DNA from: Macrostomum lignano
Lineage: Eukaryota
Reading direction: 5' to 3'
NCBI GenBank assembly: GCA_002269645.1
Contig: NIVC01000744.1
Span: 1 to 64,000, forward strand
DNA: 64,000 nucleotides
Of the stretch, positions 15,371 through 61,506 are shown one piece after another (the stretch's first letter is position 1; each line of letters starts with the position of its first letter). A model generated the notes under the pieces. It searched no databases. It was not told the origin of the DNA and saw only the letters and a program-made list of their open reading frames with translations. The translations under genes and the position numbers were made by a program.

Positions 15371-15574
15371 AGACTTGTGCAATCCTAGCATATAGCTGAG
15401 TTTTTGAGGTATTGATTGCTTAGTTACTTTTTATTCACTGGGCAGTTTTACCGGTATGAGTATTAATCTGAATAAAACGATTCTCATTATAAGTTGATGA
15501 CTGGCTACAAGCACGCTGCTTGAAAGCACATGACCAAGGAGGTTGCAAAGACCAAGGAGGACAATTAACCGACC

Positions 15575-17590
15575 CTGTTCTGATGTACAATTAGAATGCT
15601 AGACCGATAAACCGATTCTGTTCTGATGTACAATTAGAATGCTAGACCAATAAACCGATTCTGTTCTGATGTACAATTAGAATGCTAGACCAATGAACCG
15701 ATTCTGTTCTGATGTACAATTAGAATGCTAGACCGATGAACCGATTCTGTTCTGATGTACAATTAGAATGCTAGACCGATGAACCGATTCTGTTCTGATG
15801 TACAAATAGAATGCTAGACCGATGAACCGATTCTGTTCTGATGTACAATTAGAATGCTAGACCAATAAACCGATTCTGTTCTGATGTACAATTAGAATGC
15901 TAGACCAATGAACCGATTCTGTTCTGATGTACAATTAGAATGCTAGACCGATGAACCGATTCTGTTCTGATGTACAATTAGAATGCTAGACCGATGAACC
16001 GATTCTGTTCTGATGTACAAATAGAATGCTAGACCGATGAACCGATTCTGTTCTGATGTACAATTAGAATGCTAGACCGATAAACCGATTCTGTTCTGAT
16101 GTACAATTAGAATGCTAGACCAATAAACCGATTCTGTTCTGATGTACAATTAGAATGCTAGACCAATGAACCGATTCTGTTCTGATGTACAATTAGAATG
16201 CTAGACCGATGAACCGATTCTGTTCTGATGTACAATTAGAATGCTAGACCGATGAACCGATTCTGTTCTGATGTACAAATAGAATGCTAGACCGATGAAC
16301 CGATTCTGTTCTGATGTACAATTAGAATGCTAGACCAATAAACCGATTCTGTTCTGATGTACAATTAGAATGCTAGACCAATGAACCGATTCTGTTCTGA
16401 TGTACAATTAGAATGCTAGACCGATGAACCGATTCTGTTCTGATGTACAATTAGAATGCTAGACCGATGAACCGATTCTGTTCTGATGTACAAATAGAAT
16501 GCTAGACCGATGAACCGATTCTGTTCTGATGTACAATTAGAATGCTAGACCAATAAACCGATTCTGTTCTGATGTACAATTAGAATGCTAGACCAATAAA
16601 CCGATTCTGTTCTGATGTACAATTAGAATGCTAGACCGATGAACCGATTCTGTTCTGATGTACAATTAGAATGCTAGACCAATAAACCGATTCTGTTCTG
16701 ATGTACAATTAGAATGCTAGACCAATGAACCGATTCTGTTCTGATGTACAATTAGAATGCTAGACCGATGAACCGATTCTGTTCTGATGTACAATTAGAA
16801 TGCTAGACCGATGAACCGATTCTGTTCTGATGTACAATTAGAATGCTAGACCAATAAACCGATTCTGTTCTGATGTACAATTAGAATGCTAGACCGATGA
16901 ACCGATTCTGTTCTGATGTACAATTAGAATGCTAGACCGATGAACCGATTCTGTTCTGATGTACAATTAGAATGCTAGACCGATGAACCGATTCTGTTCT
17001 GATGTACAATTAGAATGCTAGACCGATGAACCGATTCTGTTCTGATGTACAATTAGAATGCTAGACCAATAAACCGATTCTGTTCTGATGTACAATTAGA
17101 ATGCTAGACCGATGAACCGATTCTGTTCTGATGTACAATTAGAATGCTAGACCGATAAACCGATTCTGTTCTGATGTACAATTAGAATGCTAGACCGATG
17201 AACCGATTCTGTTCTGATGTACAATTAGAATGCTAGACCAATAAACCGATTCTGTTCTGATGTACAATTAGAATGCTAGACCGATGAACCGATTCTGTTC
17301 TGATGTACAATTAGAATGCTAGACCGATGAACCGACCCTGTTCTGATGTACAATTAGAATGCTAGACCGATGAACCGATTCTGTTCTGATGTACAGTTAG
17401 AATGCTAGACCGATAAACCGATTCTGTTCTGATGTACAATTAGAATGCTAGACCGATGAACCGACCCTGTTCTGATGTACAATTAGAATGCTAGACCGAT
17501 AAACCGATTCTGTTCTGATGTACAATTAGAATGCTAGACCGATGAACCGATTCTGTTCTGATGTACAATTAGAATGATAGACCGATGAAC
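15575..17590. repeat. 43-bp satellite x~47 with higher-order pattern
   Basis: CTGTTCTGATGTACAATTAGAATGCTAGACCGATGAACCGATT. The CAAATAG variant occurs at 15803, 16018, 16276 and 16491 (spacing 5, 6, 5 units). Confidence 0.97.
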
Positions 17591-17688
17591 AGCACTTGCT
17601 CCAGCATGAAGTCGAAACCAGGCTAAGGTTTACAAAACTCTGCCGTTACTGCTCAACGCAGGGAATTAGGCGTGTGACATTCGGATAA

Positions 17689-18105
17689 AGTAGAAGGCAT
17701 GAGGGGGCTTCTGGGACAAAATTTTTCACCTCCTCCATAATCCACCTAAATCCATCTATATTATCCCTGACAGAATCAGAAAAAAAGGGGGGTCGCACTC
17801 GCTCCGAAAACGTCCTCCATAATCCACCTAAATCCATCCATATTATCCCTGACAGAATCAGAAAAAAAGGGGGGTCGCACTTGCTCACAAAACGTCCTCC
17901 ATAATCCTTTTAAATCCATCCATATTATCCCTGACAGAATCAGAGCATTATCCCTGACAGAATCAGAGCATAACAGTAGGACACCTGTTATGCTCACTGA
18001 CACCGACATCCACCCATAGCATCTTCGAAACAATCAGAAAACAATCTGCATTCTTCTCCCCACATTCAATTTGCAACGTGCTACCAGATCCCAAGGACTT
18101 TAAAT
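17689..18105 (+). repeat. Left terminal inverted repeat of the Polinton
   Basis: Reverse complement of 29739-30155. I saw only one substitution. Contains three ~83-bp internal repeats (CTCCATAATCC...GGGGGGTCGCACT). Confidence 0.95.
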
Positions 18106-18908
18106 GCAACATCAATGTCCTTCTCTATTGCCTTAAGATAATCAGCTTTTAGTGCAGTCTTTGGCTCAATGACTTCCAAATACAGCTCGATTCCGGTTAG
18201 CTTCACCTCCATCCTTGTGTGGTCCGCCCCAGTCCACAACACTCTACTGCGATCATCTCTAGTCATCCTAAATGTGTAGCTAAAGTTACTAGTCAGTCGA
18301 TTAAATGTATTACAGAATCCACTCATGAATCTCAATGGTACAAATACATCAACAGACCGATACTGCGGGTTCTTAGCAGCATCATCAGCACCTTGCAATG
18401 CATAGTTGTATCTCTTCTTCCTATTTTTATAGCCACTGTCATTGATATCTCCTTCTTTTTCGTCTGCAATAAAACCCGCACCACTTCCCAATTGAATAAA
18501 ATCAGGATTCTCGATCAAACAATGAGCGTCATAGACAATTCCAAAGTTGGCGATTCGCTCCAACTCAGTGCTCCCATTCGATACACTAAACTCCTTGAAC
18601 ATGTACGCCCAAAAGTTACTGATCAGAGCCACATCCGCATCATGCTTGTCAACGTTAGCACGAGCCGCATCCGCACCACCTTTTGTCTTGAATTGAAATG
18701 TCATATGGAAGCCGCTCTTAAGACTGTGCACACTAACCAGAGACGAACATCCATTGTATGTAAATGTCAGTGTTTGACCTGGACCCAAATTAGTTTCATT
18801 CTGGTTCTCGTGACTCGGAACTCTAACTTGTGTCGCTTTGATTGTGCTATCATCACTCAAAATAGGCTTGTTAATTTTGTAGAAAACTGGTGTCAGTGGG
18901 TCGTTCAT
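18081..18908 (-). CDS. Probable major capsid protein (double jelly-roll), N-terminal part only, truncated into the left TIR
   Basis: 275-aa beta-rich ORF with Polinton MCP-like segments (LISNFWAYMFKEFSV, VDVFVPLRFMSGF, LTGIELYLEVIEP). The last codons and stop come from TIR sequence. Family assignment is from remembered motif style, not a search. Confidence 0.65.
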   Translation of the reverse strand: MNDPLTPVFYKINKPILSDDSTIKATQVRVPSHENQNETNLGPGQTLTFTYNGCSSLVSVHSLKSGFHMTFQFKTKGGADAARANVDKHDADVALISNFWAYMFKEFSVSNGSTELERIANFGIVYDAHCLIENPDFIQLGSGAGFIADEKEGDINDSGYKNRKKRYNYALQGADDAAKNPQYRSVDVFVPLRFMSGFCNTFNRLTSNFSYTFRMTRDDRSRVLWTGADHTRMEVKLTGIELYLEVIEPKTALKADYLKAIEKDIDVAFKVLGIW

Positions 18909-18938
18909 TTTTTAACTAAAAATAAAATAAAATAAGAA

Positions 18939-20182
18939 ATGAAGCGAAAAAGTACACAGCAGATATCTGAATTGGAGAAGCTAGCACAAGCAGAGAAACG
19001 AGTTACCGGGCTAATAAATAAGGAGCAACAATCCTACAATGAGTTTGTCCAAGCAGCCACAGAGTTTCATAAGCCCGGGTATGGAGAAGCTAAGAAAAAT
19101 ATTGATCAGGTCAAAGAAACTATCGACGACATACAGGAAACCCAAGTGCAAAAGGCTTTGGGCAAAATTCCAGAAGCACCACAGATACAGCCGCAACCAC
19201 AACACAACCGCAACCACAACAACCACAACCACATCAATCACAACCACAACAGCAACTAAAAGTGACAGATAACATATTTGGACCAGTAGAGCGTGTAGAA
19301 CATGATGGGAAATATGTATTTGGAATAAGTATGTGGAGAAAAAATATTTATAATGAACCAGTGGAATATTATATCGACATAAATAAGAAACATATTTCTG
19401 TTGTCAAAGGCTCGGAAACTAAGAGCATTCCTTTCACAGAAACCTTACTGAGTTTTATGACCAAGAACCAAGAGAGAATCTCGGACAAACAGCTAAAGAA
19501 CTATAGAGATCTAGTGACTTTTGCTCTTGCTAGAGATATAGAAATACTAAAGGCCCCAGAAGTCCTGAGACTTATGTATGATAACGGTGTCAACCTGACT
19601 AGATTCAAAAAGTAGAAACACTTTAAACAATGGTTCGATTTGCCAGATCAGGCGGAAGTCATTGATCGGATAAAATATCTAGAACAACAACAACAACAAC
19701 AGCAACAACAACAACCACAACCACAGCAGCAACATTCCACAGAAGAACAAGTACTCAGTCAACTCGAGCAGTTAGACCCTTTGAAAGTAGCTGAATATAA
19801 GAAACAAAACCCAACAGGCTGGCAACACTTAGAACAACACTCTCCAGATCGAATGAACAGAATCAAGCAAAGAGTTTTCACACCTCAACAGAGACAGGCA
19901 CCACATGACAGTTCCATCTCTGAAAGTGAGCAGTCTTTTGCATCACCTCCCCAGCAGCTACAAGCCCAACCAACTCCACAACCCCAAGACCAACCGCCCT
20001 CAACTGGAAAAGGCATGCCTGAATTCTACAAGCGGTTAGCTGTTCTTCTAGGAGCGGCAAAGACCGGAATGAAAGACGAGAATAGAAAAGAATTTGTCAA
20101 CATCCTGGACAAAATGCTTGAGAGAAAATATATCGATAAAAGAGCAAGAGAACTTTTGCTTTCACGGTTTAACAAAAAATAA
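18939..20182 (+). pseudogene. Conserved uncharacterised Polinton protein (~415 aa) split by one frameshift (~19203) and one in-frame TAG (19613-19615)
   Basis: ORFs 19262-19615 and 19640-20182 are in the same frame, separated only by TAG. ORF 18939 joins 19262 if one A is restored in the CAA/CCA repeat. The C-terminal TGKGMPEFYKRLAVLLGAAKTG..EFVNILDKML resembles a recurrent Polinton ORF motif. Confidence 0.6.
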
Positions 20183-20198
20183 ATTTCTATTTAAAAAG

Positions 20199-20578
20199 AT
20201 GCCAATTATTTTCGAAAAAGACATTGACAAATACTATGACAAAGAGGAACTTAATCTTATTAAACGCGGATCTGGACTTTTCCCTGCAGGCCACTATCCA
20301 AGAAAAGAACGCTCTGGGAATGGCCTTGCCGATTTGATCGCTCAGGGGCCAAGATTTTTAAGGTCATTGGAGAGAACAAAGAGAACATCAAGAACGTTGC
20401 CGAAGCGGCTGGCAGTGTAGCCACAGCAGCCAAAAAGATAAAGGATACTGTAACACCTAAACAAGAGATTCAACCTCCACTGGCCCCGCTGGCCCCAAAC
20501 CCAGACAGTGTGGACCCTGCAGTCTATGAGAAGATGAGAGCAAGCATTAAAAAAGGAAGTGGTTTCAAATTTGACTAA
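20199..20578 (+). CDS. Small putative virion core protein with GxG motifs (frameshift at ~20345)
   Basis: MPIIFEK..KRGSGLF..RSGNGLADLIAQG. Adding one G to GGGG at ~20345 gives AKIFKVIGENKENIKNVAEAAGSV...KKGSGFKFD*. Confidence 0.5.
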
Positions 20579-20624
20579 AGGTACTTTCCGAGGGTACAAG
20601 AAATGTAAAGGTACAAGACTAGTC

Positions 20625-20810
20625 TCAAAATGACACATCTAAGTCCCAAAATGACACATCTAAGTCCCAAAATGACACAATTAAGTACCAAAATGACACA
20701 TCTAAGTCCCAAAATGACACATCTAAGTCCCAAAATGACACATCTAAGTCCCAAAATGACACATCTAAGTCCCAAAATGACACATCTAAGTCCCGAAATG
20801 ACACATCTAA
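20625..20810. repeat. 21-bp tandem repeat (AAAATGACACATCTAAGTCCC) x~9 inside the Polinton
   Basis: Directly visible, between the core ORF and the ATPase. Confidence 0.95.
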
Positions 20811-20850
20811 ATTATTTATTATTTAATTATTTTTTTTCATCATAGAAAAA

Positions 20851-21486
20851 ATGGACTTTTCAAACGACTTCAATCCTCACTGGACGCGTAATCAGATTAA
20901 GTTTTCTCATCACGAGTCAATTCCGAGTCACTTTAGATGCATTGTTGTTGGTTCATCAGGTTCAGGTAAAACATTCAGAGTCTTTAACATGCTTCTTAGA
21001 CCTGGATTTATCGACTATGACACTCTGCACATCTACTCTCCCACACTGTATCAAGATGAGTATAGAATGCTGATTTCTGGATTGCAAAACAAACTGAACA
21101 AAGAGGACATTATTCAATGTTTTAATAACCAACAAATCCTTCCCAGTAACCCAGAAATTGTAGCTGCTGAATATGCAAAGCACCTCAAAGACAATGAAAA
21201 ATGGCAGAACATTAAAGTGTTCACCTATGGAGATCCACAGGCTGATCCAAAGACCAAACTTCTACCCCAACCAGATGAGCTAGAAAAGGGGAGAAAGCAT
21301 TTGATCGTCTTTGATGATTGTATGACAGGCCCACAGAAGCAGATAGAAAACTATTTTACAAGAGGGCGACATAACAATTGTAATGTAATTTACATTGCAC
21401 AGAATTGGTTCGAGCTCCCATGTGAAAGAACTCATGTGATGTCTTTTTGTTGCAATTCAAGGCGTCTCTGTATTCAGCTTCATTAA
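20851..21486 (+). CDS. FtsK/A32-like genome-packaging ATPase, C-terminally truncated at ~21420
   Basis: Walker A GSSGSGKT, Walker B LIVFDD, arginine-finger segment YFTRGRHNNCNVIYIAQN. Confidence 0.9.
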   Translation: MDFSNDFNPHWTRNQIKFSHHESIPSHFRCIVVGSSGSGKTFRVFNMLLRPGFIDYDTLHIYSPTLYQDEYRMLISGLQNKLNKEDIIQCFNNQQILPSNPEIVAAEYAKHLKDNEKWQNIKVFTYGDPQADPKTKLLPQPDELEKGRKHLIVFDDCMTGPQKQIENYFTRGRHNNCNVIYIAQNWFELPCERTHVMSFCCNSRRLCIQLH

Positions 21487-24400
21487 TTTCCTTCCTAACC
21501 ACACGTTTTGGAATTCCCTTTGATTTTTTAATTGGGTCTGACGACTCACATTTTACAAAATAGGACTTTGCTCTCAACCCAATGAATTCAGTGATTATGT
21601 CACCAGCAATCTCGTCCTTCATTTTCCCAATCACTTTCTTGTTAGTGGCGTCGTCAAACACTTGATCACCATTCTGTGTCCTGAAAGACTCATCATACTC
21701 AGACAAGTCAAACAAATCTTTTTGCTGCAGCATGTCCTGATAAATGTCTTCTGTTTGAATGTCCATAATAAAACTGTCTGTGTCAGTGTACAAGAGTTTC
21801 ATTTTATCCTTGTACTGCTGCTTCATGCCATAGAAGAACTGGTACATCAGACGTTTTGATTCGTCGAGAACAGTGACACCTGTATAGATCGGCTTGCGCA
21901 GCGTCACCTTGGTTTTGTAAAATATGATCACACCTAAGTAGCTATTAAAGATATGGAGTTCTTTGAATGTTGGCTTTGACATATTTGCCTGAATAACATC
22001 AGGCTCTGATGAGGTAACAAGTTTCAGGTTTGTTCTTTTCCGCTCATTCTCAAGAGTCTTGCCATAGACAGAGTTGTTGGCCAACTTAAAGAGGTTCTTG
22101 TCAAAGTCGTTGGTTGCTTTGGTCCTAAACTGGGTGTTCTTATCAATGTAGGGTTTCATCCACGCTTCCTCTGTAAATGTAAGAGCCCTGTGAACTTTGG
22201 TGACCGTGCAACCCAGTGAGATAAAATACTGAAGCAGTTTGTAATGGATTTTGTAACGTGTCTTGTTGTTTAGATTCTGTGTTAGTTTCTCTGTATGTTC
22301 TTTTTCTGTTCCTGACAAGCGCCAAGTTCCATTATTATCATTGGGAGTTTCGATTATTTTCGGGCACTTGATGTTCTCCGGGAAGGGTGGAAAGTCAGAG
22401 AAATAGTCGTGAAGCTCTGGTGGAATGTAAACATCAACCTCATAAATGGCAGCCAATGAAAAGTCCCATTTGAATTCTGATGAGGGTAACCATCGAAAAT
22501 CTCTAACTGGAAGATCTTGACTCATCGCCCACCCGTAGAGATTATTAGCGTCCAAGTAAGTAATGTAGTTTGAGGGCTGCTCCTTATTGTAAGATTCAAT
22601 GTAGGGATTGTTTGCTTTTGCATACCTGTTAACGCAAATTGAGATTCCCCCTCGCTTTGACGATTCGACAAAATTGTACATGTCAATGTCTGTAAGAAGT
22701 TCAATGTACCAATCTGGATCTTGATCCCATTTCATTTTAAGCAAAGATTCCCAGCTAGTGGCAGGCAGAGACACATAATGTGCTGGATCGAGGCCATATG
22801 CTGTGTACCAGGTGTATCTGAAGGTTTCAAACACATCAGCCAGCAGAAACACATCTGTGTAGAGGTAAAGCAGGTGATACTGGAAGAAGTTTTGACAATT
22901 AAAGTAATTATAGACATGCTTCGCGTGCTCATAGTCTTTGTCAGAGATTTCAGAGTCTGTTAGTTTTGAAAAGAACTTCTCCTGTGGTGGTAAACCATCT
23001 TCAAATACGTGATACCCAGTAATATTTTCATAGGGGTAGAAGCCTTTCTTTCTTAAAAGTTTAAATGATTCATCACTGTTGTTAATTTTACTTGCAAACA
23101 TCTTTGTATATGTACATTGTTCATCTTTTAGATTCTTGCTTAGTTCGTCTAGACTGGCAGCTAGAAATTGATATGAATCCTTCAGTCTTATTTTACCTGT
23201 ACCCGAATTATCCTGTTTAATATCAACACACTTAAACTTCTCCTTGTTCTCTGCGATGCAATCAAGGTGTATGTCTGGAATCATGCCGATTTTTTCAACT
23301 ATTAAATGCATGTCATAGTTCTTTGCGTTGTGACAAAATATTGTTAGATCATGAATGTTCGATTTTAGCTGTAGATTACAGGTGTTATGCGCTGCACCTC
23401 TAAATTTCCCAGTATAGTGGCAGTGGTCCCTAACGGTGGGGTTTTTAATATTAGTGCAAGTTAAATGTTTCCTGCAGATGTGGCAATGAGTTGCTGATAG
23501 GAGATTGCTTTCATCCTCCTCAGTCATCATTATTGGAACAGGTTGAAGGGTGCTAATCACTTTTTGCAACTCTAACATTCTGGCAATAAACTGCTCCACA
23601 CACTGCTCTCCAAAGAAATAATTATACTCAACAAGTCCTTTTGTATTAATAAAGGCATATGCTACTGAATTGGGGATATGTTTTTGAGTTTGAGTTTGTT
23701 TTTGAGTTGGAGTTTGTTTTTGAGTTGGAGTCTGTTTTTGAGTTTCTGGCACGATTGAGCATTCGAAATCAGCATATACAACAAATGGGAGCTTCTCCAT
23801 CTTGTGATAGTTCTTAAACCGGAGATACTTCTCTTCAGCTGAAGGAAGAGAGCAGTTTGTTGGGTGATCCTCGCATGATAATTCATGCTCTGTTAGCTTT
23901 TCAAAGCGTTCAGGTCCACTGTAATGCTTAAGGCACAAGCGGCAGATGGCAACAGCCTCGTGATGATTATTCAACTGCTTGTGAATGAGTCTTGAAGATC
24001 TTTAATCCAAACATAGTGAGCCTCCTCTAGTAAATTACCAATCACTAGAAGATCCACTTCAGTCCGCCTTTTCCCCTCGGATCTAAAACGTCTTTGCTAC
24101 ATCTGACCGGTTGAACTTTCTCAGTTTTTTCACTCCACTCAAAGACTGTGATTCTAATTTTGTTATTAAACACTTCTTCTAGCTTTGGGATCTGAGAGAT
24201 CGCCAAGCCTCCTTTGTCAAACCTGATTCCCTTCTTTTCGCATTCGATGAGATAGTAGTTGAAATAATTTTGATAATTTGAGGTTCTTTCGGGGTGGTGA
24301 GGGACACTAAAAAGTGCAGAAAGAACTGCCCATAGAGCACAGCAATTGTCTTTATTTTTAACATTTATGCAAGCTTTTTTACCGGCTAGCTTATGCGGGA

Positions 24401-25151
24401 GCTCTATATAAGAGGAGGCTTTAAGTGGGTCATATTTCATGACCATGACAGTCGCTCTTTGAATCCCTCCCACGACCCATCCGGAACCTCTGGATGTAAA
24501 CGCTTCAATTTTCTTATTGACATCTTGAAGGAAAGGATCCAGTGTGTCTGTTGGGGTGAATGGCTTTGCCTTTGTTGTCATGTAATACTCGAGATGCTCA
24601 GTGGGTTTCGCAGGCATATAAAACGCAATCTTGAATGATATCTGTAGTTTAAAGGTCTTGCGTGTTTTGAGTGTGTGATCAACAACTGATTGGATGCTGT
24701 CTTTATAGTCGTAGATGTTTGCGGTGGTACCGTTGGTGCCGTTAATTGGGATTTTGTACTCTATGTAATGTTCTGTAAACTTCCTCTGCGCAAAATTAAT
24801 CTCTTCAGTGGCAAGCTCCGACTCTTTTAAATGGATTAATTGCTCTAATTTCTCTTGTTCCTGCTTATTTTGTGGGTACTTTGCTTTTTCACCAGTGAGA
24901 GTTTCATATTTGTTAACTAAGTTGCGACTCCTCTCTTGGTGTTCCTTTGCAGAATTTTTTATAGGCGCATACTGGTTTGATTCTAATTGATTGATGATTT
25001 CCAACTGTTTTTCATAGCTTCCCAGGTGACCAGGGTCGGTGTTAAACTTTTGTTTACATGCTTCTCTTAGTAAATTACTTTTGTCTTGAAATGAGACGCC
25101 TTTTGAAAAATGTTTGTTGACTAAATCTTTTGCTGGATTAGCTTTTGGCAT
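21356..25151 (-). CDS. polB: Protein-primed family B DNA polymerase (~1240 aa), two 1-nt frameshifts at ~24075 and ~23995, C-terminus lost at ~21420
   Basis: Exo motifs YADFE, HNAKNYD, YTDVFLLADVF. Pol motifs YLDANNLYGWAM, KLANNSVYGK, YTDTDS. Endonuclease-VII-like DHCHYTGKFRGAAHNTCN. The N-terminal SSYIELP..INVKNKDNCCALW lies in ORF 24045-25151 and is bridged by EVDLLVIG..AHYVWIKDL in an intermediate frame. Confidence 0.93.
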
Positions 25152-25368
25152 TTTTTTTCTCTAAAATAAAAAAATTTTGACGGTGACCACCCTGATAGAA
25201 AAGTTGAACTGTTTCTACATCCTATCAGTAGCGTTAGGTTTATGAAGCTGGATAAAGTGGGGTTTTAAACCTCATCACATCCGCATTATTGTAAACCCAG
25301 CATTGTGCAGTGTCATGATGGCTTTTACAATGTCAGACTTGCTTACAGAGTTTTCATGCTCACAATCA

Positions 25369-25719
25369 TCACGATCGGGCAGCCTCTCCTGCCTTAATTG
25401 TTATACCTTTGTCTCTTGCAATCTTTTGCAATTCAAGCTGGTGGGCTCTATCATTCCCAGCTTTAACAGCAGTTGCTAAACCTCCAGCTACACCACCTGC
25501 GGCACTTACAGCGCCTGCAATGATCGGAATAAGAGCTGCTAATGGTAGGATTCCTCCTGACTTTTCATCTGTGATGCTGTGTCTTTGCTCATTACACTGA
25601 ACTATTTGCTGCACGGGATCGACTTTTACTTTGGCACCTTTAATTGATATAAGACCTGGTTTCTTTGATTCAATGATTTTATTGAGTTTATTGATGGTTC
25701 TGGTTTCAATCTTTGTCAT
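25369..25719 (-). CDS. Small protein with an adenovirus pX(mu)-like hydrophobic motif
   Basis: KSGGILPLAALIPIIAGAVSAAGGVAGGLATAV closely resembles the adenovirus pX C-terminal RGGILPLLIPLIAAAIGA. Confidence 0.6.
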   Translation of the reverse strand: MTKIETRTINKLNKIIESKKPGLISIKGAKVKVDPVQQIVQCNEQRHSITDEKSGGILPLAALIPIIAGAVSAAGGVAGGLATAVKAGNDRAHQLELQKIARDKGITIKAGEAARS

Positions 25720-25735
25720 TTTTTATTTTAATATT

Positions 25736-26773
25736 TTAATTAATTTCCGTGTCAGCTGGTATCACTAGGAGTTCAGCTCTAGTGAATGACCGTGTGGGGG
25801 ATTTAGGGTTAAAGGCCTGAGATAAAAAGTAATAGTCACCGGAGTCGGAGGTAAAATGTCTGTCTATTTTATGTACATCAAGGCTGAAGTATGGATCTGT
25901 AGCTCTTCTTTTGGTGTCTTTCTCTAGCTCTCCAGGTAGATATAAAAAGCGTAGAAACTCAGAGTTTGTCAGTATATATGGTGATTCAACTCCTGGAAGC
26001 TTAGGGTAGTTCGAGGTGTGTTTTGTGTTGTGTGTGTTGTGTGGGGTTGTCGTGTTGTTGTCTGTTCTATGAGATGCCTTAAGTTCGACAGTGTCTTGCT
26101 TAATTGCATGGGATGGTTTCAATCCAGTCATGCGTGTGACTTCATTGTTCAGTTGCTCTATAACAGTGGGGAGGCGGTCTGTCCATTTTGAATAGTACTG
26201 ACCACTTTTTAGTTTCAGCTCTTCAGCTGTCTGCTTAGTGAATAGCCTCTTGGCTAGAGTTAGATTGAATCTCTCAACGTACGCTTGGTCTCTGTGCAAG
26301 TTTGTTCTGCCATAGCGAATTTTTGTGTCACACTTATGTAGGAGACTTCGTACTGCCCCATAGAATTCTTTACCTGGGTCGGTCATAAAGATTTGGGGGT
26401 ATGTGAGCGGAGAGTTTTTATAAATATCTTGGAGGGGGGCTGCAACTGCTTCTGACTTCTTCGTCTTAAGCGGTCTCGCTTCCTTATATCTGGAGGCAAC
26501 GTCTGTAATTGTAAGAGCATACTTGTAGCCTGAGTCGTTGGGGAGAAACAAAAGATCTGCTTGGTGCGCCTCGTTAGGTTTATAGATGTTAAAGTGAGGT
26601 CTTTCAAATTTTACTGGTGGGAAATAGACTTGGTAGACTGCTTGCTTAGAGAGCCATTTTTCTACTGTAGCTTTTGGTTCCTTACTCAGCTCCATGAGTT
26701 TACTAACGGCATTTTTGCCTACAAAGAATCCTTTGTCGCTGTAGTAGAGTTTTTTAAGTTTCTGATCTGTCAT
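25736..26773 (-). CDS. Retroviral-like (rve, DDE) integrase of the Polinton, apparently intact
   Basis: HQADLLFL (D), FMTDPGKEF (D), QAYVERFN (E). 345 aa with no stops. Confidence 0.92.
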   Translation of the reverse strand: MTDQKLKKLYYSDKGFFVGKNAVSKLMELSKEPKATVEKWLSKQAVYQVYFPPVKFERPHFNIYKPNEAHQADLLFLPNDSGYKYALTITDVASRYKEARPLKTKKSEAVAAPLQDIYKNSPLTYPQIFMTDPGKEFYGAVRSLLHKCDTKIRYGRTNLHRDQAYVERFNLTLAKRLFTKQTAEELKLKSGQYYSKWTDRLPTVIEQLNNEVTRMTGLKPSHAIKQDTVELKASHRTDNNTTTPHNTHNTKHTSNYPKLPGVESPYILTNSEFLRFLYLPGELEKDTKRRATDPYFSLDVHKIDRHFTSDSGDYYFLSQAFNPKSPTRSFTRAELLVIPADTEIN

Positions 26774-26803
26774 TTATTTAAAAAGAAAATTTTAAATAAA
26801 ATA

Positions 26804-27253
26804 ATGCAGTGCTCTGGTGGTAAAATAGATTCACATGGACTGATAGAAAAGCTTCCTCATCCAAACAAAGGCTGGACACTTCCCGGCTATAAATATTGCG
26901 GGCCTTTGAATCCACTTGAAATACAGTTAGATAAAAACAATAATCCACATCCTGGGCATGAGCCTGTGAACGAGCTAGACTCTGTCTGCATGTGGCACGA
27001 CGTTAAGTATAGAGATTTTCCTGAGGAGAAGAATCGCTGGGACAAAGAAATGCTCAGGAGACTCGACAATATGGGGATTTCAAGCGGGTGGAAGGAATCG
27101 ATCGCTCGGAAATTAGTCAAGGCGGTTATTTTTGGTAAGAAAAAGCTGGGGTTGGGGGTCAGCGGTTGTTTGGGGGCGGGCTTTGTGTTGCACACGCCAA
27201 GTAAAGAATTAGGAAGACTGCTGAAAGAGCTGGGGGTTGAGAGAGCAGAATGA
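26804..27253 (+). CDS. Parvovirus VP1u-type phospholipase A2 (PLA2X-like), 149 aa
   Basis: WTLPGYKYCGPLN (Ca-binding loop YxGxx) and PVNELDSVCMWHDVKY (catalytic HD). ATG at 26804. Confidence 0.85.
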   Translation: MQCSGGKIDSHGLIEKLPHPNKGWTLPGYKYCGPLNPLEIQLDKNNNPHPGHEPVNELDSVCMWHDVKYRDFPEEKNRWDKEMLRRLDNMGISSGWKESIARKLVKAVIFGKKKLGLGVSGCLGAGFVLHTPSKELGRLLKELGVERAE

Positions 27254-27624
27254 TTCAAGCAAGAAAATTCAGCTGGATTAGCGGCTGTTTGGGAGAAGAG
27301 TTAAGTTTTCTGGCCTTCTGGCCTTCGCTTCTCTTCTCTCCACACAAGTGTACAGTCTTGAGCACACTGGTTTCGGTTACAATCTCTCTTTCCACCATGC
27401 TTCTCCTGGGGGGGGGGGGGTGGGGGTTGTATTACATGCTTCTAATAAAGAAATAGGCAGACTGCTGAAAGAAATAGGAGAAATTTGTTTCTAGCGGACG
27501 CTCGAACTCGCATCGTATCTTCGTAAGTAAATCCTGACTTACTTTAAACCATTTTCTGTAACTTTCAGTTGCTTTTTTAATTCTAAACTATTTAAAACAA
27601 TCTACTTATATATTTGTAGAAAAA

Positions 27625-28401
27625 ATGTTCAATGCAACTACAGCCAGAATCACCATGCAAGATCTCACAGGTTTTATCGATTCCATCGATCAATTTATTG
27701 TTGAGGAGCATAAAGATGACGTTAAAGACATGGTTCGAGAACTCTGGGAAAGATTATCTGAAGATGAAGAAAGGCATCTGCGAGTCAGTGAAGAAATGAA
27801 AATACGGAAGATGAAGGAAAGAGCCACGGATGTATTCCATAAACTTAGAAGTTCGCTTCAATATGAGAACGAGCAAGCGGCTCAGGCAGAGGTAATTAGT
27901 GAGGGGGAGTTAGAAGCAATCTGCAACGACATCACAAACCGAGGTCCTGTTGACAATGGGGTGCCGGAACTGCATGAAAACCTGGTTAAGCAGGGCCAAA
28001 TTTACAACCGGCGAACTTGGGTGGCAGCATTTTTTCTTGGAAAAGTGTATGACCAATTTATTACGAGGCATCAGCAGACATTAACAAGCCTGGCGGAACT
28101 GTTCAGCGTGAGTTACTACCACGTGCAATCCCGCCATAACATCTATACTCTGGTGACCGAGCTTCCACGGCTCCGCTTTTGCTCTGTTTCGGCTACATTC
28201 CTGCATGACAACTCTAGGACGATTCGGAGCGAAAGGTGGTGGCAAACGGATGCAGCAGATTGGCTAGATCCGACTCCCCCAACAAGACCTCCATCGGCGG
28301 CTGAACTTCAGGGCCTTCTCGATGATTACTGTGAGTTATCTCAATGTGAAATGAAGGAAAAACTGTGTGTATTATTGGCCCACCCAATATGTGTGAAATG
28401 A
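27625..28401 (+). CDS. Uncharacterised Polinton ORF (258 aa), possible helix-turn-helix; C-terminus runs into a tandem repeat
   Basis: Long intronless ORF preceded by the AAAAA-ATG context shared by the element's other genes. TLTSLAELFSVSYYHVQSR looks HTH-like (inference). Confidence 0.5.
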   Translation: MFNATTARITMQDLTGFIDSIDQFIVEEHKDDVKDMVRELWERLSEDEERHLRVSEEMKIRKMKERATDVFHKLRSSLQYENEQAAQAEVISEGELEAICNDITNRGPVDNGVPELHENLVKQGQIYNRRTWVAAFFLGKVYDQFITRHQQTLTSLAELFSVSYYHVQSRHNIYTLVTELPRLRFCSVSATFLHDNSRTIRSERWWQTDAADWLDPTPPTRPPSAAELQGLLDDYCELSQCEMKEKLCVLLAHPICVK

Positions 28402-28885
28402 AGGAAAAAACCGTGTGTATTATTGGCCCACCCAATATGTGTGAAATGAAGGAAAAAACCGTGTGTATTATTGGCCCACCCAATATGTGTGAAATGAAGG
28501 AAAAAACCGTGTGTATTATTGGCCCACCAAATATGTGTGTCTTGTGCTAAAAATAGCCAGAGCTTGCTGTGTAAAAAAGCGTACGCGACAGTGTGGAATG
28601 TGAAACGTGGGGGGGGGGAGATTTTCTCAACTGTAGCTGGACCAATATGTGAGGTGGTGGAAAAACCGTGTGTATTATTGGTAGAACCAATATGTGTGGG
28701 ACAATGGAAAAACCGTGTGTATTATTGGTAGCACCAATATGTGTGGGACAATGAAAAAACCGTGTGTATTATTGGTAGAACCAATATGTGTGGGACAATG
28801 GAAAAACCGTGTGTATTATTGGTAGAACCAATATGTGTGGGACAATGGAAAAACCGTGTGTATTATTGGTAGAACCAATATGTGT
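28345..28885. repeat. 47-48-bp subterminal tandem repeats (two related subfamilies)
   Basis: CCAATATGTGTGAAATGAAGGAAAAAACCGTGTGTATTATTGGCCCA x~4, then CCAATATGTGTGGGACAATGGAAAAACCGTGTGTATTATTGGTAGAA x~4. Confidence 0.9.
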
Positions 28886-29169
28886 ACTGCGCTCTCCCCA
28901 CTGCCTCTCTTTTATAAAAATATAGTACTAATGTGAATACTACCACTCAACTTTTTGCTGCAGATGATGAAGCTGGCCAGCCTGCTGGTGTTGGAGACGG
29001 TCAAGCAGCTATGGATGACTGAGCTCTTTTGAACAACTGAGCATTGATATCATGGACTTAAAGTCGCTAATCTAAATACACTATGGTTGTAATTTTTAAG
29101 CCTCTTCTAACTTCAAAGCCTGCTTATTAAAATAAATGATAATTGAATCAACATATTCCGTTTTTTTTG

Positions 29170-29670
29170 CTAATTGACGAAGCTTCGTAAACTCTTTAAT
29201 GAAAAAGCAGAAAATGCTAAAATATATTTTTAACCTATACTGCTAGTAAAAGTATTAGTTCAGAGTGAAAATTCTAAGCGACAGAAAATTTCAACTTACG
29301 AAGCTTCGTAAACTCTTTAATGAGATAGCAGAAAATGCTAAAATATATTTTTAACCTACTGCTAGTAGAAGTAGTAGTTCAGAGTTAAAATTTTAAGCGA
29401 CAGAAAATTTCGATTTACGAAGCATTGTAAACTCTTAAATGAAAAAGCATAAAATGCTAAAAAATATTTTTAACCTACTGCTACTGGAAGTAGTAGTTCA
29501 GAGTGAAAATTTTAAGCGACAGAAAATTTCAATTTATGAAGCATTGTAAACTCCTAAATAAAAAAGCATAAAATGCTAAAATATATTTTTAACCTACTGC
29601 TACTGGAAGTAGTAGTTCAGAATGAATATTTTTAGCGACAGAAAATTTCAATTTACGAAGCTTCGTAAGC
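29170..29670. repeat. ~120-bp subterminal tandem repeat x4
   Basis: ACGAAGC(T/A)T..GTAAACTC..AAATGCTAAAATATATTTTTAACCTACTGCT recurs at ~120-bp spacing. Confidence 0.85.
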
Positions 29671-29738
29671 ATATAAAAGACAATCAAGATTCAGAAAAAA
29701 TTTAGATTTTTTCAAAGGGTAAGGACCCTGCGCTGATG

Positions 29739-30155
29739 ATTTAAAGTCCTTGGGATCTGGTAGCACGTTGCAAATTGAATGTGGGGAGAAGAATGCAGAT
29801 TGTTTTCTGATTGTTTCGAAGATGCTATGGGTGGATGTCGGTGTCAGTGAGCATAACAGGTGTCCTACTGTTATGCTCTGATTCTGTCAGGGATAATGCT
29901 CTGATTCTGTCAGGGATAATATGGATGGATTTAAAAGGATTATGGAGGACGTTTTGTGAGCAAGTGCGACCCCCCTTTTTTTCTGATTCTGTCAGGGATA
30001 ATATGGATGGATTTAGGTGGATTATGGAGGACGTTTTCGGAGCGAGTGCGACCCCCCTTTTTTTCTGATTCTGTCAGGGATAATATGGATGGATTTAGGT
30101 GGATTATGGAGGAGGTGAAAAATTTTGTCCCAGAAGCCCCCTCATGCCTTCTACT
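29739..30155 (-). repeat. Right terminal inverted repeat of the Polinton
   Basis: Mirror of 17689-18105. The ORF track shows identical 85-aa translations at 17776-18033(-) and 29811-30068(+). Confidence 0.95.
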
Positions 30156-30876
30156 GGGTAACTCCAGTGTCTGGTCTTTTGTAGGTTAAACTCTATTGTA
30201 CGTTCCAATATTATTCGTTATGTCATTTGACCTTTGACCTAGCCTTTTGACATTCAACATCTGGCCCTTCTGAGCTTCGAATCTCAGAAAATATTCAGTG
30301 CATTCGAACATTGATTTCTTAGAAACTACATGCAAGCATGCAAACTTACTTAAACTCCAACGAGCATTGAAATCTCAGTTTTGAAATAAGCGTTTCACTG
30401 ATAAGCTTTTGAGCAGTCAGTTCACCGATCCAAGGCTTTTCGACACACGAACGCCTAGGTCAATGTACAGCGGGTTTTGGCCCATTTTAATATTGATTTA
30501 AGCATTTTGGACCCTTGGAGCTACTAGCAGTAGTGTCAACTGGGCTTAGGAACTGAAAAAGTTAAAATTCTGAATTCAGTACTATGAATTACACTTAGCT
30601 AATTGGGGAAAGTTTGGTCCGAGTACCCCTTGACTCGCAGTTAATCTTCCCAGTCAGAACAGAAAATATCCACCACTTGACCCACAATAGCTTAGGCACA
30701 AGCCGTCAAGAACTCTTGGGTTCATTCAACAATATTTCAAGTAGAAAAAATCTTGTCTTCGTATTCTGACACGTTCATTCTGCTGTTATTTGAGAGTTTC
30801 AGATGCATTTGTTTGTACGCAGCTTGGCATTGTTAGACTTTTCCAGTTTGCCAACAGAACTTTCACCTTCAGCCGC

Positions 30877-32045
30877 TTACATGACGAGCATCTCGATTTC
30901 TTTCAGCGAATGAAAATAGCCGTAGTAAAAATTCCAAATGATTCCCCTGGCGTTCGGGCCGCTGAATGCCGCAGCCAGGTTTTTGTACTCTCCGTTCGGG
31001 TGAGCGTTGTGGCAGCTGGCGAACCACCAGGCACCAACGTAGCTTTGGGCGCAGCTGCCTGAGTTTCCGTCGTGGTCGGCGTCCTTTGTGCTGAACTGGC
31101 AGCCGTTGTGCGCAGCCATGGAATCGCCGACTCCATCGCTGGCCGAGAATCCGGCCACGCTCAGTCGGTAGAAGTCGGACTCGGGGCCCACGTGGAAACT
31201 GGAGTACTGAGCCCAGCTCTCCGTGCCGTTCCACAGCTTCATGAGGAACCGCAGCTGCTTGGTTGAACCAGTCGATGTCAGGGTCCGAAGATTCTCCAAG
31301 CCTGCGAACGTGAGGATGTGCAAACTCAGTGCGGCGAAGAACATCATAAAAGCATTGAAAAATAAGTCCAATTTACCAATCCAGTAGTTTCTGTCGGGAC
31401 CTTCTCCGAACTCATGCTTGTACTCAGTCCAGGTGCGATAGAAGTCTACCGAACCGGACACTCTGTGCTGCACCGTGATCCAGCAGTCCGTGTTGTACGT
31501 CTGAAATGCCGAATTTGATCAGTTTCATGTTTCTTCAGTGCAAAGTGCTCCTTCGAATATCTAAAGCCATGTCCAGTCAACAGCAGCTCTGAAGAACCGT
31601 TGAGATGTTCTACCTAAAAACACTGAATTTCGTACATTATCTCTTTGGAAGAACCCTCACTTTTGGAGTCTTTCAAGCAAGCGTAATCCGTTCGGAAAAT
31701 GGATCGCCATACTTCAATCCTCATCAAGGTGCTGCTTACCCACACCAGCTCGTTGCCGTGGCCCGCATCGCGGCACTTCCTGCAGTGGCTCAGGCCCAGG
31801 CGACACCGAAACTCGGTGCACCTGCCCGAGCCGGAGTCGAACTTCACCAGCTGCACCCTGGCGTCTCGACTGGCGGCTCCGGTGCACAGGACTCTGGACC
31901 GAGCCCAGTGCGACCTGGCGACCTCGTAATCGGAGAGGCTCTCTAAGGCGGTCCGCCACTGCCGCTCAGATGGAGCAGAAGCGGATGCTGGATGCTGGAC
32001 TGCGGCCAGCAGCAGAAAGCAGGCTGTCAATCCAATGGCCAGCAT
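30877..32045 (-). CDS. Secreted fibrinogen C-terminal domain (FReD/ficolin-like) protein, 284 aa, exons 32045-31740, 31500-31377, 31301-30877
   Basis: Signal peptide. FReD motifs WITVQHRVSGSVDFYRTWTEYKHEFG, YWIGLENL, FSTKDADHD, CAQSYVGAWWFASCHNAHPNG, GIIW. GT-AG introns with phases 0 and 1, total 855 nt. Confidence 0.9.
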
Positions 32046-32489
32046 GATTCAGCAGCGCGCTAAACAGAGTAAAAAAATGATGCAGACAAAACTTCTTTTC
32101 CTACTTTCTTGCCTCCCAAGCGCCGACTCGACTAGATCGCTTTTGTCGGGCCTGTCTTCCTGTTGCTTGAATAGGAGACGTCAGTCTCTGTCGAATGACA
32201 TCTCCCTGTGGAGCGTCTCTCGCCTTCCGTGGCTTCCTCTGTTTCCCTCTGCTTTGGTTGTATGACAACTGTTTCACGAGCTATAAGCTTGAGCTCACAA
32301 TGCACTGCCCCTGTCAGACTTGCAGCTTCCGCAAAGTTTGCTACAAATTCACTAGCTTAGGGCATCTCCTTCCGGTTCGGCTTCCTTCTAAGTCCCGTTG
32401 GTAGCACTGAAACTCACACATTGTAAAGATTTTTTTCTGGTAACCCTTCTTGCAAAAAACTACAAGACTGTTTTGGCTTTGGAAGGCAG

Positions 32490-40018: not shown

Positions 40019-40069
40019 GGGAGCGGGCTGAGCGAGGCAGTTAAAAGCAGGAGGGGTAAAATCGGTTTC

Positions 40070-40102
40070 GCGCGCCGTGTCGGCGCGCTCGCTCAGTTTT
40101 TT
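40070..40102 (-). promoter_or_regulatory. Candidate -1 programmed ribosomal frameshift signal (A_AAA_AAC + 7-nt spacer + GC hairpin)
   Basis: On the - strand: CAC GCA AAA AAC TGA GCGA GCGCGCC GACAC GGCGCGC. The -1 frame is open into the pol ORF. Confidence 0.7.
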
Positions 40103-41109
40103 GCGTGATTTTGCTCGGAGTGGCTGCCCTCACAGATTCGGCAGGCATGGAGGAATCGGCAGTTGCTCCTCATGCAGCCGTTGGTGCTGTTGAAGGACAA
40201 GCACAGCTCGCGGCCTGAGGATGTCCGCGGACCCATGACGCGGCTCTTGTTGCTAGGCTGGTTTCGCTTGGCTGTCTGGTTGTACTGGTCCGTCTTAATG
40301 CTGAGCAGGTGCCTGATCGACATCTGGGCGCAGTCTTTGCCCCAGCGAAGGCTGTTAGCTGCGCGGTGCTGGCGGTAGTCATGGTCGAATCTGATCACCC
40401 GGTGCGCTGGGAATCTGTCGAATAGCTCGGCCACCTGGACATTGTACTGGGCGTAATCTTTGACTTGCTCAGTTGTGCTGTACACTTGGCCCTTGCTGGT
40501 CACCTGCGGCGCTGTGTCTTCAAGTATCTGAAGCAGGACCTTCATACTGCCGGCGAACCACTGCCCAATTGTCATGCCGTCCAGCTTGGTCGTCGACTTC
40601 TTGAGCACGAGGCCGCCAGAGCTGCCCCTGGTGAGCAGCTCGTCAGCCTGGCCTGACAGATCATCGACAAAGTCTCTGACGAGTAGACACGGCTGCCCGA
40701 CCGGCCGGGGGTTGGCTCTAGCGCTGACGGGGCCTGTTGGGTTGATAAGTTCAGCGAAAAGATTCTGCTGCTCACCTGATTCTGTACGAGCAGTCACGAC
40801 GGCGCGTTCCCGAAGCTCTCGCTCGCGTGTTTGAAGCTCTAGGAGCTGCAGCCGTTTCTGCGCCCGCCGAATCTCGCCGTCCAGGTCCGCCTCCCGTGGG
40901 TCCCGGCCTTGGTCTTGGAGCTCCTCCTGCGCACAGGGCGATGCCGATGCCGATGTCAATGCCGATGTCCCGCCGTCTTGAAGCTGTGACTGCCCCTCGT
41001 GTTGTCTCAGTCTGGCTTGCAAGGCCGACTTATTGCCTGCGGTTGAGAGGCCTCGGCTACCCAGCTCACTCTTGAGTTGTTTGACTGTTAGTCGGTCCAC
41101 ACGATGCAT
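40093..41109 (-). CDS. Gag-like ORF1 of a Ngaro/DIRS element: N-terminal SAP domain, C-terminal Cys/His zinc finger
   Basis: LTVKQLKSELGSRGLSTAGNKSALQARL matches the SAP consensus. C-terminal CLSFNSTNGCMRSNCRFLHACRICEGSH. FDHDYRQHRAANSLRWG is typical of DIRS-group gag. Confidence 0.8.
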   Translation of the reverse strand: MHRVDRLTVKQLKSELGSRGLSTAGNKSALQARLRQHEGQSQLQDGGTSALTSASASPCAQEELQDQGRDPREADLDGEIRRAQKRLQLLELQTRERELRERAVVTARTESGEQQNLFAELINPTGPVSARANPRPVGQPCLLVRDFVDDLSGQADELLTRGSSGGLVLKKSTTKLDGMTIGQWFAGSMKVLLQILEDTAPQVTSKGQVYSTTEQVKDYAQYNVQVAELFDRFPAHRVIRFDHDYRQHRAANSLRWGKDCAQMSIRHLLSIKTDQYNQTAKRNQPSNKSRVMGPRTSSGRELCLSFNSTNGCMRSNCRFLHACRICEGSHSEQNHAKN

Positions 41110-41377
41110 GATAGCCAGAGCCAGATAGTCGCAAAAAAAATTTTACGAGCCAAAGCGCTCTCGCAGCGCGCACGAGAGAGCGTGAGCGCACAAATAAAAG
41201 GGGGCCGACGCCGCCCACCCCCAACCCAACACCCCCGCCTGCCGGCCGGCACCCAGCACCCCACCTTGCGGCAGGGATGCACACGCGCGGGCCGCACGCA
41301 CAGACGGGCGGAGGGGGCGGCCCCGTCGGCTAAACACGATTACAGAGCCGGTTAAAACCGGCCCCTGAAATCGCAAC

Positions 41378-47819: not shown

Positions 47820-48338
47820 CTGGGCTTTGACAATAGACAGATGAACTCGGTCCTAAAATTCAGTAGACGTCGCAGCAAAGTTGCAGTTCAACCTATGAAA
47901 ATCTTAGTAAGCAGTTTGTCGGTATACAACATTTCGAACTCTAATTCAGTGCCTTGCTTGGGTGCTTCAATGTACACAACTAAACTCTGTACAGTTAGCC
48001 ATGGCATGTGCAATGTTCTTTTGCAACTTTTCACTGCCTAATGCTAAAGCTATCTATAGAGGACGTAATAGGCGGAAATTTTGGATCCAATGAAATGGCG
48101 ATACAGCGATTTCATGCGCCTCTATCCCCTGGCCAGTGAGCGTTTCACATTCTGGATCGGAAAAACTTCGCGCATACCCGCGTAGCTTTTATTGGCAGGA
48201 CAGTGCTGAGCTGATAGTCCCTAGTTAGCTGCTGAGAATTTGAGAGCTTAAACTTACAACAGTTACAGCAATTACATAACGTAGAAAAAATCATATTCAA
48301 AAAAGCATTGAAGCGACAAGGCTACAGAGAATTTAGGG

Positions 48339-51365: not shown

Positions 51366-51921
51366 TATATACGCTCGTACCAGCAGAATATACGATAAAC
51401 GACACAACTTGCGTCCTGGCATAATTGCTATTCGGCCTCTGCTGAGCGCCTATCCCGTTCTTAAAATATCAACTGAATCAGAATCCCTCATTTATAGTTA
51501 TACATGTAGCCTTTCCATCCGTAGAATGTGCTGTTCAATAGGGGCGTTGCTGCCTCTTCCCGTTTCCACAAGAACGTTTTGTACAATTAGAGACGTGCTG
51601 TCTCTTTTCTCCTCTGGACGTACAGTCCTTCCTCGAGGCTTCTTGCCTTATCCCCTTCCCTAGCTCATAGAATTCTATGATTCAATATTCAAATATTATG
51701 AATAGAAGATGCCTCGGTCCCGAGCGGCGTTAACTCTGAATTTTGGAAGAGTGTGGTCTCAGAACCGTTAAAACTTGTGTCCCATAGTTTGTTTGAATTA
51801 CAAGAAGATAACGAATTATAAACGGTCAACCGCGATCTCGGTTGTGGTTCTGAGTCAAATAACTAACATCAGTGCTAGTGAGATCAAGAGGGACTTACAC
51901 TCCTTTCATGAGGAACGAATC

Positions 51922-61329: not shown

Positions 61330-61506
61330 TATTAGATCAGTTTTATAACTGCATGTGCTTGTTGAGATTCTTGGAGAGAAACGACGTGTAGGAAATAATT
61401 CTCTTGGGAATCTGTTCAGGCTTTATCTTATTGGAAAGATACTTGCGAGGAACAAGGAAATTTCGTGTCGCATGCGATTGGAGGAAAAATTCCGGCATTA
61501 CTGCAG

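What the first reader, a model, noticed from the sequence alone, without database searches (positions are those of the whole stretch)
17689..30155. Recently integrated adintovirus-like Polinton with virion genes, PLA2 and a pX-like protein
Seen: near-identical 417-bp TIRs, AGTAG termini, a 6-bp TSD (5/6 match), and pPolB, integrase, ATPase, MCP fragment, PLA2, a pX-like ORF, a GxG core ORF and two unknown ORFs. Known: Polintons and adintoviruses are capsid-encoding integrating viruses. Inference: a young endogenous virus of this host lineage, with complete relatives probably elsewhere in the genome or as free virus. It may be an undescribed family member.
Basis: partly seen in the sequence, partly recalled or inferred. 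Interest (0 to 1): 0.75.

Follow-up and report, generated by a model that had tools for sequence, protein, structure and literature searches.

The report
Broken copy of a Polinton virus-transposon
A 12.5-kb virus-like jumping element (a Polinton) with near-identical ends sits in what is likely an animal genome; this copy has lost parts of its capsid, packaging and polymerase genes and is likely one damaged member of a large, young family in the same species, so it is an ordinary kind of element from a previously unsampled-looking lineage.

Summary
Real Polinton/Maverick at 17689-30155: 417-bp inverted ends with 1 mismatch, AGTAG...CTACT termini, 6-bp target duplication matching 5/6. It carries a protein-primed polymerase (Alpha-adintovirus class by similarity), a DD35E integrase, A32 ATPase, PLA2, a pX-like gene and a capsid gene whose full-length 74%-identical relative models as a double jelly roll. 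This copy cannot make a virion: the capsid gene stops after the first jelly roll, a second deletion cuts the ATPase and polymerase tails, the polymerase has two frameshifts, and no penton or protease was found. Contigs of four sequencing runs show many close sisters; some continue past the ATPase/polymerase deletion and lack the frameshifts. The orphan 258-aa ORF has far lower depth than the core, so it is likely cargo of a few copies. PLA2 and pX are described adintovirus genes. Free virus, expression and a Repbase/Dfam match are untested. The scan noted decayed PLA2-type Polintons in another genome (e1-1168274), but no look-alike of this integrase. Verdict: new, divergent member of a known kind; the interest lies in the family, not this copy.

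The parts
17683..17688 (+). left target-site duplication GGATAA
   Evidence: 5/6 match to the right flank, chance about 0.005
17689..18105 (+). left terminal inverted repeat, 417 bp, starts AGTAG; holds 82-bp x2.6 and 23-bp x2.1 internal repeats; its inner edge is the capsid-gene break
18081..18908 (-). major capsid protein gene, cut at about residue 268-269 where it runs into the left repeat; keeps the first jelly roll only
   Evidence: 74% to 423-aa P0001 over 1-269; P0001 model pLDDT 89.4, second strand set 263-414; best solved matches are virophage and giant-virus capsids
18939..20182 (+). three consecutive ORF pieces (18939-19259, 19106-19615, 19616-20182) separated by a frame change and a stop; likely one broken gene; last piece ends in a domain conserved in related elements ('PZ-type', label recalled)
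   Evidence: profile of 12 C-terminal stretches from IMG/VR loci ranks this piece first of 1,837 window segments, E 0.0013; the whole-length profile missed it
20199..20578 (+). small basic ORF with three GxG motifs, split over two frames; putative core protein
   Evidence: no family hit; role inferred only
20621..20810 (.). 21-bp x9 minisatellite
20851..21419 (+). A32/FtsK packaging ATPase, Walker A and B present, C-terminal third missing
   Evidence: Pfam Pox_A32; profile positions 15-153 of 230; motifs
21419..21427 (.). deletion joint between ATPase tail and polymerase tail
   Evidence: loose ends at 21419 and 21427 in runs X9 and X14 (tables 7, 8)
21427..25151 (-). [quoted passage not shown]
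   Evidence: 39% to Corynactis coral adintovirus PolB
25369..25719 (-). pX-like small protein (GG then hydrophobic helix), a separate gene
   Evidence: Pfam Adeno_PX above cut-off; similar stretch in L017, L026, L031
25736..26773 (-). rve integrase, open frame of 345 aa, D73-D132-E167 (DD35E)
26804..27253 (+). parvovirus-type phospholipase A2-like gene, 149 aa, YCGP and HD motifs, no pX tail
   Evidence: relatives in 9 of 31 IMG/VR loci
27416..27472 (+). second, 77%-identical copy of the PLA2 gene's tail (27172-27228), near the point where depth falls; possible recombination joint
27625..28401 (+). orphan 258-aa ORF, accessory; present at far lower depth than the core
   Evidence: no homologue; weak Atlas leads to helix-turn-helix-like phage proteins; depth
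28345..28885 (.). 48-bp x4.1 and 47-bp x4.9 related tandem arrays
29172..29668 (.). 119-bp x4.2 AT-rich array whose units hold a CTACT...AGTAG palindrome like the element's end motif
29739..30155 (-). right terminal inverted repeat, ends CTACT
30156..30161 (+). right target-site duplication GGGTAA

Best explanation
This is a deletion-damaged copy of a Polinton/Maverick (an integrating, capsid-encoding DNA element) that likely belongs to a large, young family in the same species and was likely inserted recently by the family's integrase. Shown: ends, target duplication, gene content, the breaks, and close sisters that run on past one deletion. Inferred from what is known of Polintons: complete members copy their linear DNA with the protein-primed polymerase from the terminal repeats, insert it with the rve integrase (6-bp duplication), and may package it with ATPase, double-jelly-roll capsid, penton, protease-processed core proteins and PLA2. 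This copy cannot do so alone. Because its ends differ at only 1 of 417 bases while the inside carries two large deletions and several frame breaks, it was more likely than not (about 55%) copied from an already damaged template with proteins supplied by sisters. The ATPase/polymerase deletion likely removed penton and protease. The right arm with the 258-aa ORF likely comes from a minor subfamily.
For: Ends and target duplication. Gene families and intact catalytic motifs. Capsid. Sisters: 20 of 24 listed runs, 7 studies, one organism, hold 57-67% of the words of 20851-27250 (6 studies if the possible source is left out); 5,781 of 6,662 laid records in X3, 3,766 of 4,430 in X5, 744 of 967 in X14 and 208 of 306 in X9 are at least 95% alike. 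X9 and X14 contigs leave the window sequence at 21419 and 21427 (X9: 255 or more and 121 further letters). Contigs of all four runs differ from the window at both polymerase breaks, and one 839-bp X9 contig spans both. In L001, L004 and L007 a penton-sized gene follows the ATPase, and in L004 and L007 the protease follows the polymerase. Depth over 27351-28340 is 1,023-1,577 in X3 against 91,020-232,481 over 20851-26350; single X14 contigs are 46-85 against 960-1,273.
Against: Contig depth is summed and is no copy number (one search's own warning); no listed piece spans the whole stretch, so no complete sister was seen. In X3 and X5 no loose end at 21419/21427 is among the rows shown (1,042 rows hidden). 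The penton and protease profiles come from distant relatives and the same method missed the window's pX and GxG genes, so those negatives lean on the lack of any spare ORF. The end motif AGTAGA is not exactly (AGT)2 or (AG)3. Gene order was inferred from 3 distant elements of 31.
Confidence: 0.8

Rival explanations
1. Same element, but it integrated whole and decayed in place; the ends look young through recent insertion or gene conversion, and no damaged form was ever mobile.
For: Most Polinton copies are decayed fossils (96% in vertebrates, PMC8097293 passages). P0003 (88% to the window capsid) has a different internal deletion, and one search lists many low-depth deletion joints, so private deletions are common. 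The target duplication already has a mismatch.
Against: One change in 417 bp of repeat against two large deletions, a stop and at least four frame changes inside.
Confidence: 0.35
2. Much of the damage is an assembly artefact: indel errors and a chimeric join of different copies.
For: Contigs of all four runs, including a possible source run, differ from the window at both polymerase breaks and at many single positions where nearly all depth shows another letter. The window is rich in tandem repeats.
Against: The polymerase and GxG breaks lie outside runs of five or more equal bases; the 21419/21427 joint has a few letters that fit neither side, and both flanks give a near-perfect target duplication.
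Confidence: 0.12
3. The high depth reflects free, replicating virus or linear episomes in the sequenced animals and not mainly integrated copies.
For: Core depth is far above the accessory arm in three of four runs; runs guessed to be RNA also hold the core. Free ends have been reported for other adintoviruses (PMC8502044 section 3.1).
Against: Shares are alike (0.57-0.67) over 7 studies from 2015 to 2024, as expected of inherited DNA; many deleted variants are present. Contigs cannot show free ends.
Confidence: 0.1

Closest known systems
Alpha adintoviruses (Starrett et al. 2021, PMC8502044), e.g. Corynactis coral adintovirus (PolB DAC81289.1)
   Same: PF03175-type polymerase, 39% identical over 893 columns; Corynactis is in the Alpha-PolB panel of Fig. 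S2; rve integrase, FtsK/A32 ATPase, PLA2 and a pX-like sequence.
   Different: PLA2 and pX are separate genes on opposite strands around the integrase, not the fused PLA2X; no adenain or penton in this copy; capsid cut; polymerase on a long branch with no close neighbour among 54 others.
IMG/VR elements L001, L004, L007 (IMGVR_UViG_3300019739_000002, 3300027549_000010, 3300040794_000071)
   Same: Polymerase 38-39%, ATPase E about 1e-31 to 1e-33, stand-alone PLA2, separate pX-bearing protein, same capsid profile and conserved C-terminal-domain gene.
   Different: They carry penton-sized, protease and fibre-like genes; gene order differs; their capsids fall outside the window's small clade (window, P0001, P0002, P0004; support 0.998).
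Vertebrate Mavericks (Barreat and Katzourakis 2021, PMC8097293)
   Same: Terminal inverted repeats of about 400 bp, 6-bp target duplication, AG-rich end motif, accessory regions next to the ends, most copies defective.
   Different: Intact ones are 12.7-24.6 kb with eight core genes; this copy is 12,467 bp, has PLA2 and a different gene order.

Membership tests
Polinton/Maverick | [quoted passage not shown] | tested here: met
   Pfam DNA_pol_B_2; Exo and Pol A/B/C motifs; gene broken by two frameshifts and a short C-terminal loss
Polinton/Maverick | retrovirus-like (rve) integrase | tested here: met
   Pfam rve above cut-off, DD35E, open frame
Polinton/Maverick | long terminal inverted repeats | tested here: met
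   417 bp, 1 mismatch
Polinton/Maverick | 6-bp target-site duplication | tested here: met
   5 of 6 match, chance about 0.005
Polinton/Maverick | terminal motif (AGT)2 or (AG)3 as in vertebrate elements | tested here: inconclusive
   AGTAGA...TCTACT: 5 of 6 bases fit (AGT)2
Polinton/Maverick | A32/FtsK packaging ATPase | tested here: met
   Pox_A32; truncated
complete polintovirus / adintovirus | full double-jelly-roll major capsid protein | tested here: not met
   family is double jelly roll but this copy ends at about residue 268 of about 423
complete polintovirus / adintovirus | penton (minor capsid protein) | tested here: not met
   profile of 18 proteins from 16 IMG/VR loci: 0 hits at E<=1 among 1,837 window segments; the seeds' label rests on position and size (recalled), no Pfam hit
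complete polintovirus / adintovirus | adenain-like maturation protease | tested here: not met
   profile of 19 proteins from 18 loci: 0 hits; seed label from a weak Peptidase_C5 hit, E 0.047
Alpha adintovirus class | PF03175-type (Alpha) PolB | tested here: met
   no Beta reference sequence was in my tree, so this rests on similarity
Alpha adintovirus class | N-terminal OTU domain of PolB | tested here: inconclusive
   N-terminal piece aligns to Corynactis PolB 150-282, E 2e-13; candidate Cys and His lie in different frames; no profile test, motif recalled
Alpha adintovirus class | PLA2X (PLA2 with C-terminal pX domain) | tested here: not met
   PLA2 and pX are separate ORFs; fused in L014, L017, L026, L031, separate in L001, L004, L007
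complete polintovirus / adintovirus | virions or free-ended genomes | not testable with these tools
   only contigs were available
catalogued Repbase/Dfam Polinton family | sequence match to a named entry | not testable with these tools
   neither library is offered

The most novel reading that the evidence does not exclude
The host carries a very large, very young and still active polintovirus family of a deep, unsampled lineage, whose complete members are transcribed and make virions, while deleted and recombinant copies like this one (with swappable cargo such as the orphan 258-aa gene) ride along as defective interfering elements. A species sequenced in at least seven studies would then be a handy system in which to see Polinton particles and transposition.
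Probability: 0.15. Interest if true: 0.72.

Novelty: new member of a known kind. Interest (0 to 1): 0.3.

Why it matters
Polintons are common in animals (20,702 integrase-linked pPolB1 genes in 960 genomes, PMC10748475 passages) and most copies are broken, so one more broken copy changes little. Two things lift it slightly: the lineage is divergent (polymerase at most 36-48% to the 120 best hits; capsid in a clade of four), and the family looks abundant and young in a repeatedly sequenced species. PMC8097293's abstract (2021) says Maverick particles had not been observed; an active family in a tractable host would make that question testable.

Tried and rejected
Capsid fragment against longer proteins: 0 of 2,563 candidates. 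Capsid fragment and capsid profile against PDB sequences: nothing meaningful. Single-protein pattern scans: integrase and polymerase in IMG/VR, P0001 and the 258-aa ORF in JGI metagenomes, no relative. Exact look-up of 8 window proteins: 0 of 8 in the collection. 258-aa ORF: 0 of 198 candidates, no PHROG, Pfam only E 0.016 and 0.07, 0 of 31 loci, single-sequence model pLDDT 39.5, not used for a fold search; Atlas leads (DUF6192, DUF3102, DUF1016_N, scores 0.89-0.92) stay leads. Rejected that it is the missing penton: no profile hit, charged helical-looking N-half, low depth. No LxCxE motif in 8 small ORFs, so no 'Oncoid' call. Rfam: 0 hits in 17000-31000. No RNA holder listed; X9 is only guessed to be RNA, so expression is not claimed. 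No empty-site copy of the flanks in the window. The polymerase tree (55 sequences, 804 columns) holds only hits to the query and no outgroup, so it shows a long branch and no placement. Host: I guessed a free-living flatworm (Macrostomum) from recall of such sequence; untested. Searches pairing that name or 'flatworm' with Polinton/Maverick gave no description, but PMC10748475's supplement counts 748 pPolB1 in 8 of 73 flatworm genomes, so flatworm Polintons are not new.
Full report
Observation. The element spans 17689-30155 (12,467 bp). Its ends are 417-bp inverted repeats with one mismatch, starting AGTAG and ending CTACT. The flanking hexamers GGATAA and GGGTAA match at 5 of 6, about 0.005 by chance. 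Pfam finds a protein-primed polymerase with an endonuclease VII-like insert, an rve integrase, an A32 ATPase, a parvovirus-type PLA2 and an adenovirus pX-like peptide. Catalytic motifs of polymerase, integrase (DD35E), ATPase and PLA2 are present. The core is 40% GC against 55% and 48% in the flanks.

Capsid. The 275-aa ORF at 18908-18081 has 54 relatives among 1.84 billion representatives. The best, P0001, is 423 aa and 74% identical over residues 1-269; 12 of 13 longer relatives scanned match Pfam DJR-like_dom (11 above the cut-off). I folded P0001 with a 37-sequence alignment: pLDDT 89.4, pTM 0.89, two strand-rich halves (22-247 and 263-414). Its best solved matches are the Sputnik and mavirus virophage, iridovirus, PBCV-1 and PRD1 capsids (E 1e-17 to 1e-12); predicted-structure matches include virophage, MELD-virus and adintovirus proteins. 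The window's own gene stops at about residue 268, at the inner edge of the left repeat, and lacks the second jelly roll. The true repeat may therefore be longer than 417 bp, or the end may have been rebuilt from the other end; I cannot tell which.

Damage. The ATPase covers profile positions 15-153 of 230 and meets the polymerase tail head-on; the polymerase stops matching the Corynactis protein at 1235 of 1282. Contigs of runs X9 and X14 leave the window at 21419 and 21427 and go on with other sequence, so this is a deletion of this copy. The polymerase has two frame changes near 24078 and 23994; contigs of all four runs differ from the window there and one X9 contig spans both. The ORF pieces at 18939-20182 and 20199-20578 are also broken. 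Profiles of penton-sized and protease genes from related IMG/VR elements gave 0 hits among 1,837 window segments, while ATPase and PLA2 profiles hit as expected; the same method missed the pX and GxG genes, so sensitivity is limited, but no spare ORF is left except the 258-aa one. In L001, L004 and L007 the penton-sized gene follows the ATPase and in L004 and L007 the protease follows the polymerase, which suggests that the one deletion removed both.

Family. No host assembly was at hand, so sisters were seen through run contigs only, and only for 20851-28340. Twenty of 24 listed runs, from 7 studies and one organism, hold 57-67% of the sampled words; one study may be the window's source. I laid 4 of the 20. 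Most laid records are at least 95% alike and 138-183 places per run show other letters over 7,490 bases. Depth over the core is about a hundredfold (X3, X5), twenty-five-fold (X14) and threefold (X9) above the arm at 27351-28340; single X14 contigs differ about fifteenfold. Depth is summed over contigs and is no copy number, so I read this only as 'many close sisters, few with the 258-aa ORF'. A 57-bp, 77% repeat of the PLA2 tail lies where depth falls, a possible recombination joint. Expression is not shown: no holder is on record as RNA.

Unknown ORFs. The last piece of 18939-20182 ends in a domain shared with related elements (E 0.0013, first of 1,837); I recall this as the PZ-type gene. 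The 258-aa ORF has no relative in any search and folds poorly. Atlas leads point weakly to small helical DNA-binding-like phage proteins; my best guess is an accessory DNA-binding regulator, about 30%.

Mechanism. Complete members likely replicate by protein priming from the repeats, integrate with the rve enzyme and may form particles; this rests on the literature (PMC11071308, PMC4028283, passages), not on tests here. This copy keeps ends, integrase, PLA2 and pX. The contrast between 1 change in 417 bp of repeat and heavy inner damage favours, modestly, copying of an already damaged template by sisters' proteins over decay in place; assembly error may account for some frame breaks.

Comparison. 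Polintons are defined by polymerase plus integrase (PMC5499653, abstract start in a listing), both met. The polymerase is PF03175-type and 39% identical to that of Corynactis coral adintovirus, an Alpha-PolB element; PLA2 marks Alpha virion modules and pX-like domains are described. I do not file this copy as a complete adintovirus: full capsid, penton and protease were tested and not met, and PLA2 and pX are not fused. Stand-alone PLA2 with a separate pX protein also occurs in L001, L004 and L007. The lineage is divergent: best polymerase hits 36-48% (120 listed of 7,969), a long branch among 55 sequences, and a four-member capsid clade among 27.

Papers seen. PMC8502044: passages, sections 3.1 and 3.2, supplement search and first part (text of Fig. 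S2); the supplement is cut and its slides unreadable, so a listed relative could be missed. PMC8097293: passages and one section. PMC10748475: passages and supplement search. PMC11071308 and PMC4028283: passages. Others: listings only. Seven searches found no description of this family, but the host is not established and Repbase and Dfam could not be searched.

Verdict. Observation confirmed; interpretation partly supported. New member of a known kind; interest 0.3. The most novel reading, an active virion-forming family in a repeatedly sequenced animal, is not excluded (0.15).

Noticed in passing
window 29172-29668: 119-bp array; 3 units hold a CTACT...AGTAG palindrome resembling the element's own end motif (3 matches, 0.01 expected; unit folding z -2.1 and -1.8). 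Could be relic ends or binding sites; unexplained.
   Followed up: partly
window 37097-41142 (-): SAP-domain gag-like ORF followed by one 1,010-aa frame with two RT stretches, RNase H and integrase; the first part recalls a DIRS element and the second a Gypsy element (recalled), possibly a nested fusion.
   Followed up: partly
window 50100-51449 (-): Mariner-type transposase with open frame.
   Followed up: partly
window 30877-32048 (-): Secreted-looking gene with a fibrinogen C domain (E 4.5e-32), 700 bp right of the element; main sign of an animal host.
   Followed up: partly
window 53692-54877 and 60183-61422 (-): Two near-identical copies of a signal-peptide gene with a weak PAN-domain hit.
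   Followed up: partly
window 15567-17590: 43-bp x47 minisatellite ending 98 bp left of the element; the whole window is dense in tandem arrays (52 rows).
   Followed up: no
window 46338-47852 (-), 42859-43263 (+), 48976-49443 (+): A 504-aa frame without Pfam hit containing a 45-bp array; weak cold-shock and ankyrin hits in the other two.
   Followed up: no
P0003 (unnamed 598-bp ENA contig): Capsid 88% like the window's, with a different internal deletion that keeps the C-terminus.
   Followed up: partly
L001, L004, L007, L014, L017, L026, L031: IMG/VR holds near-complete unclassified Polinton-like elements with PLA2, both fused to pX and separate.
   Followed up: partly
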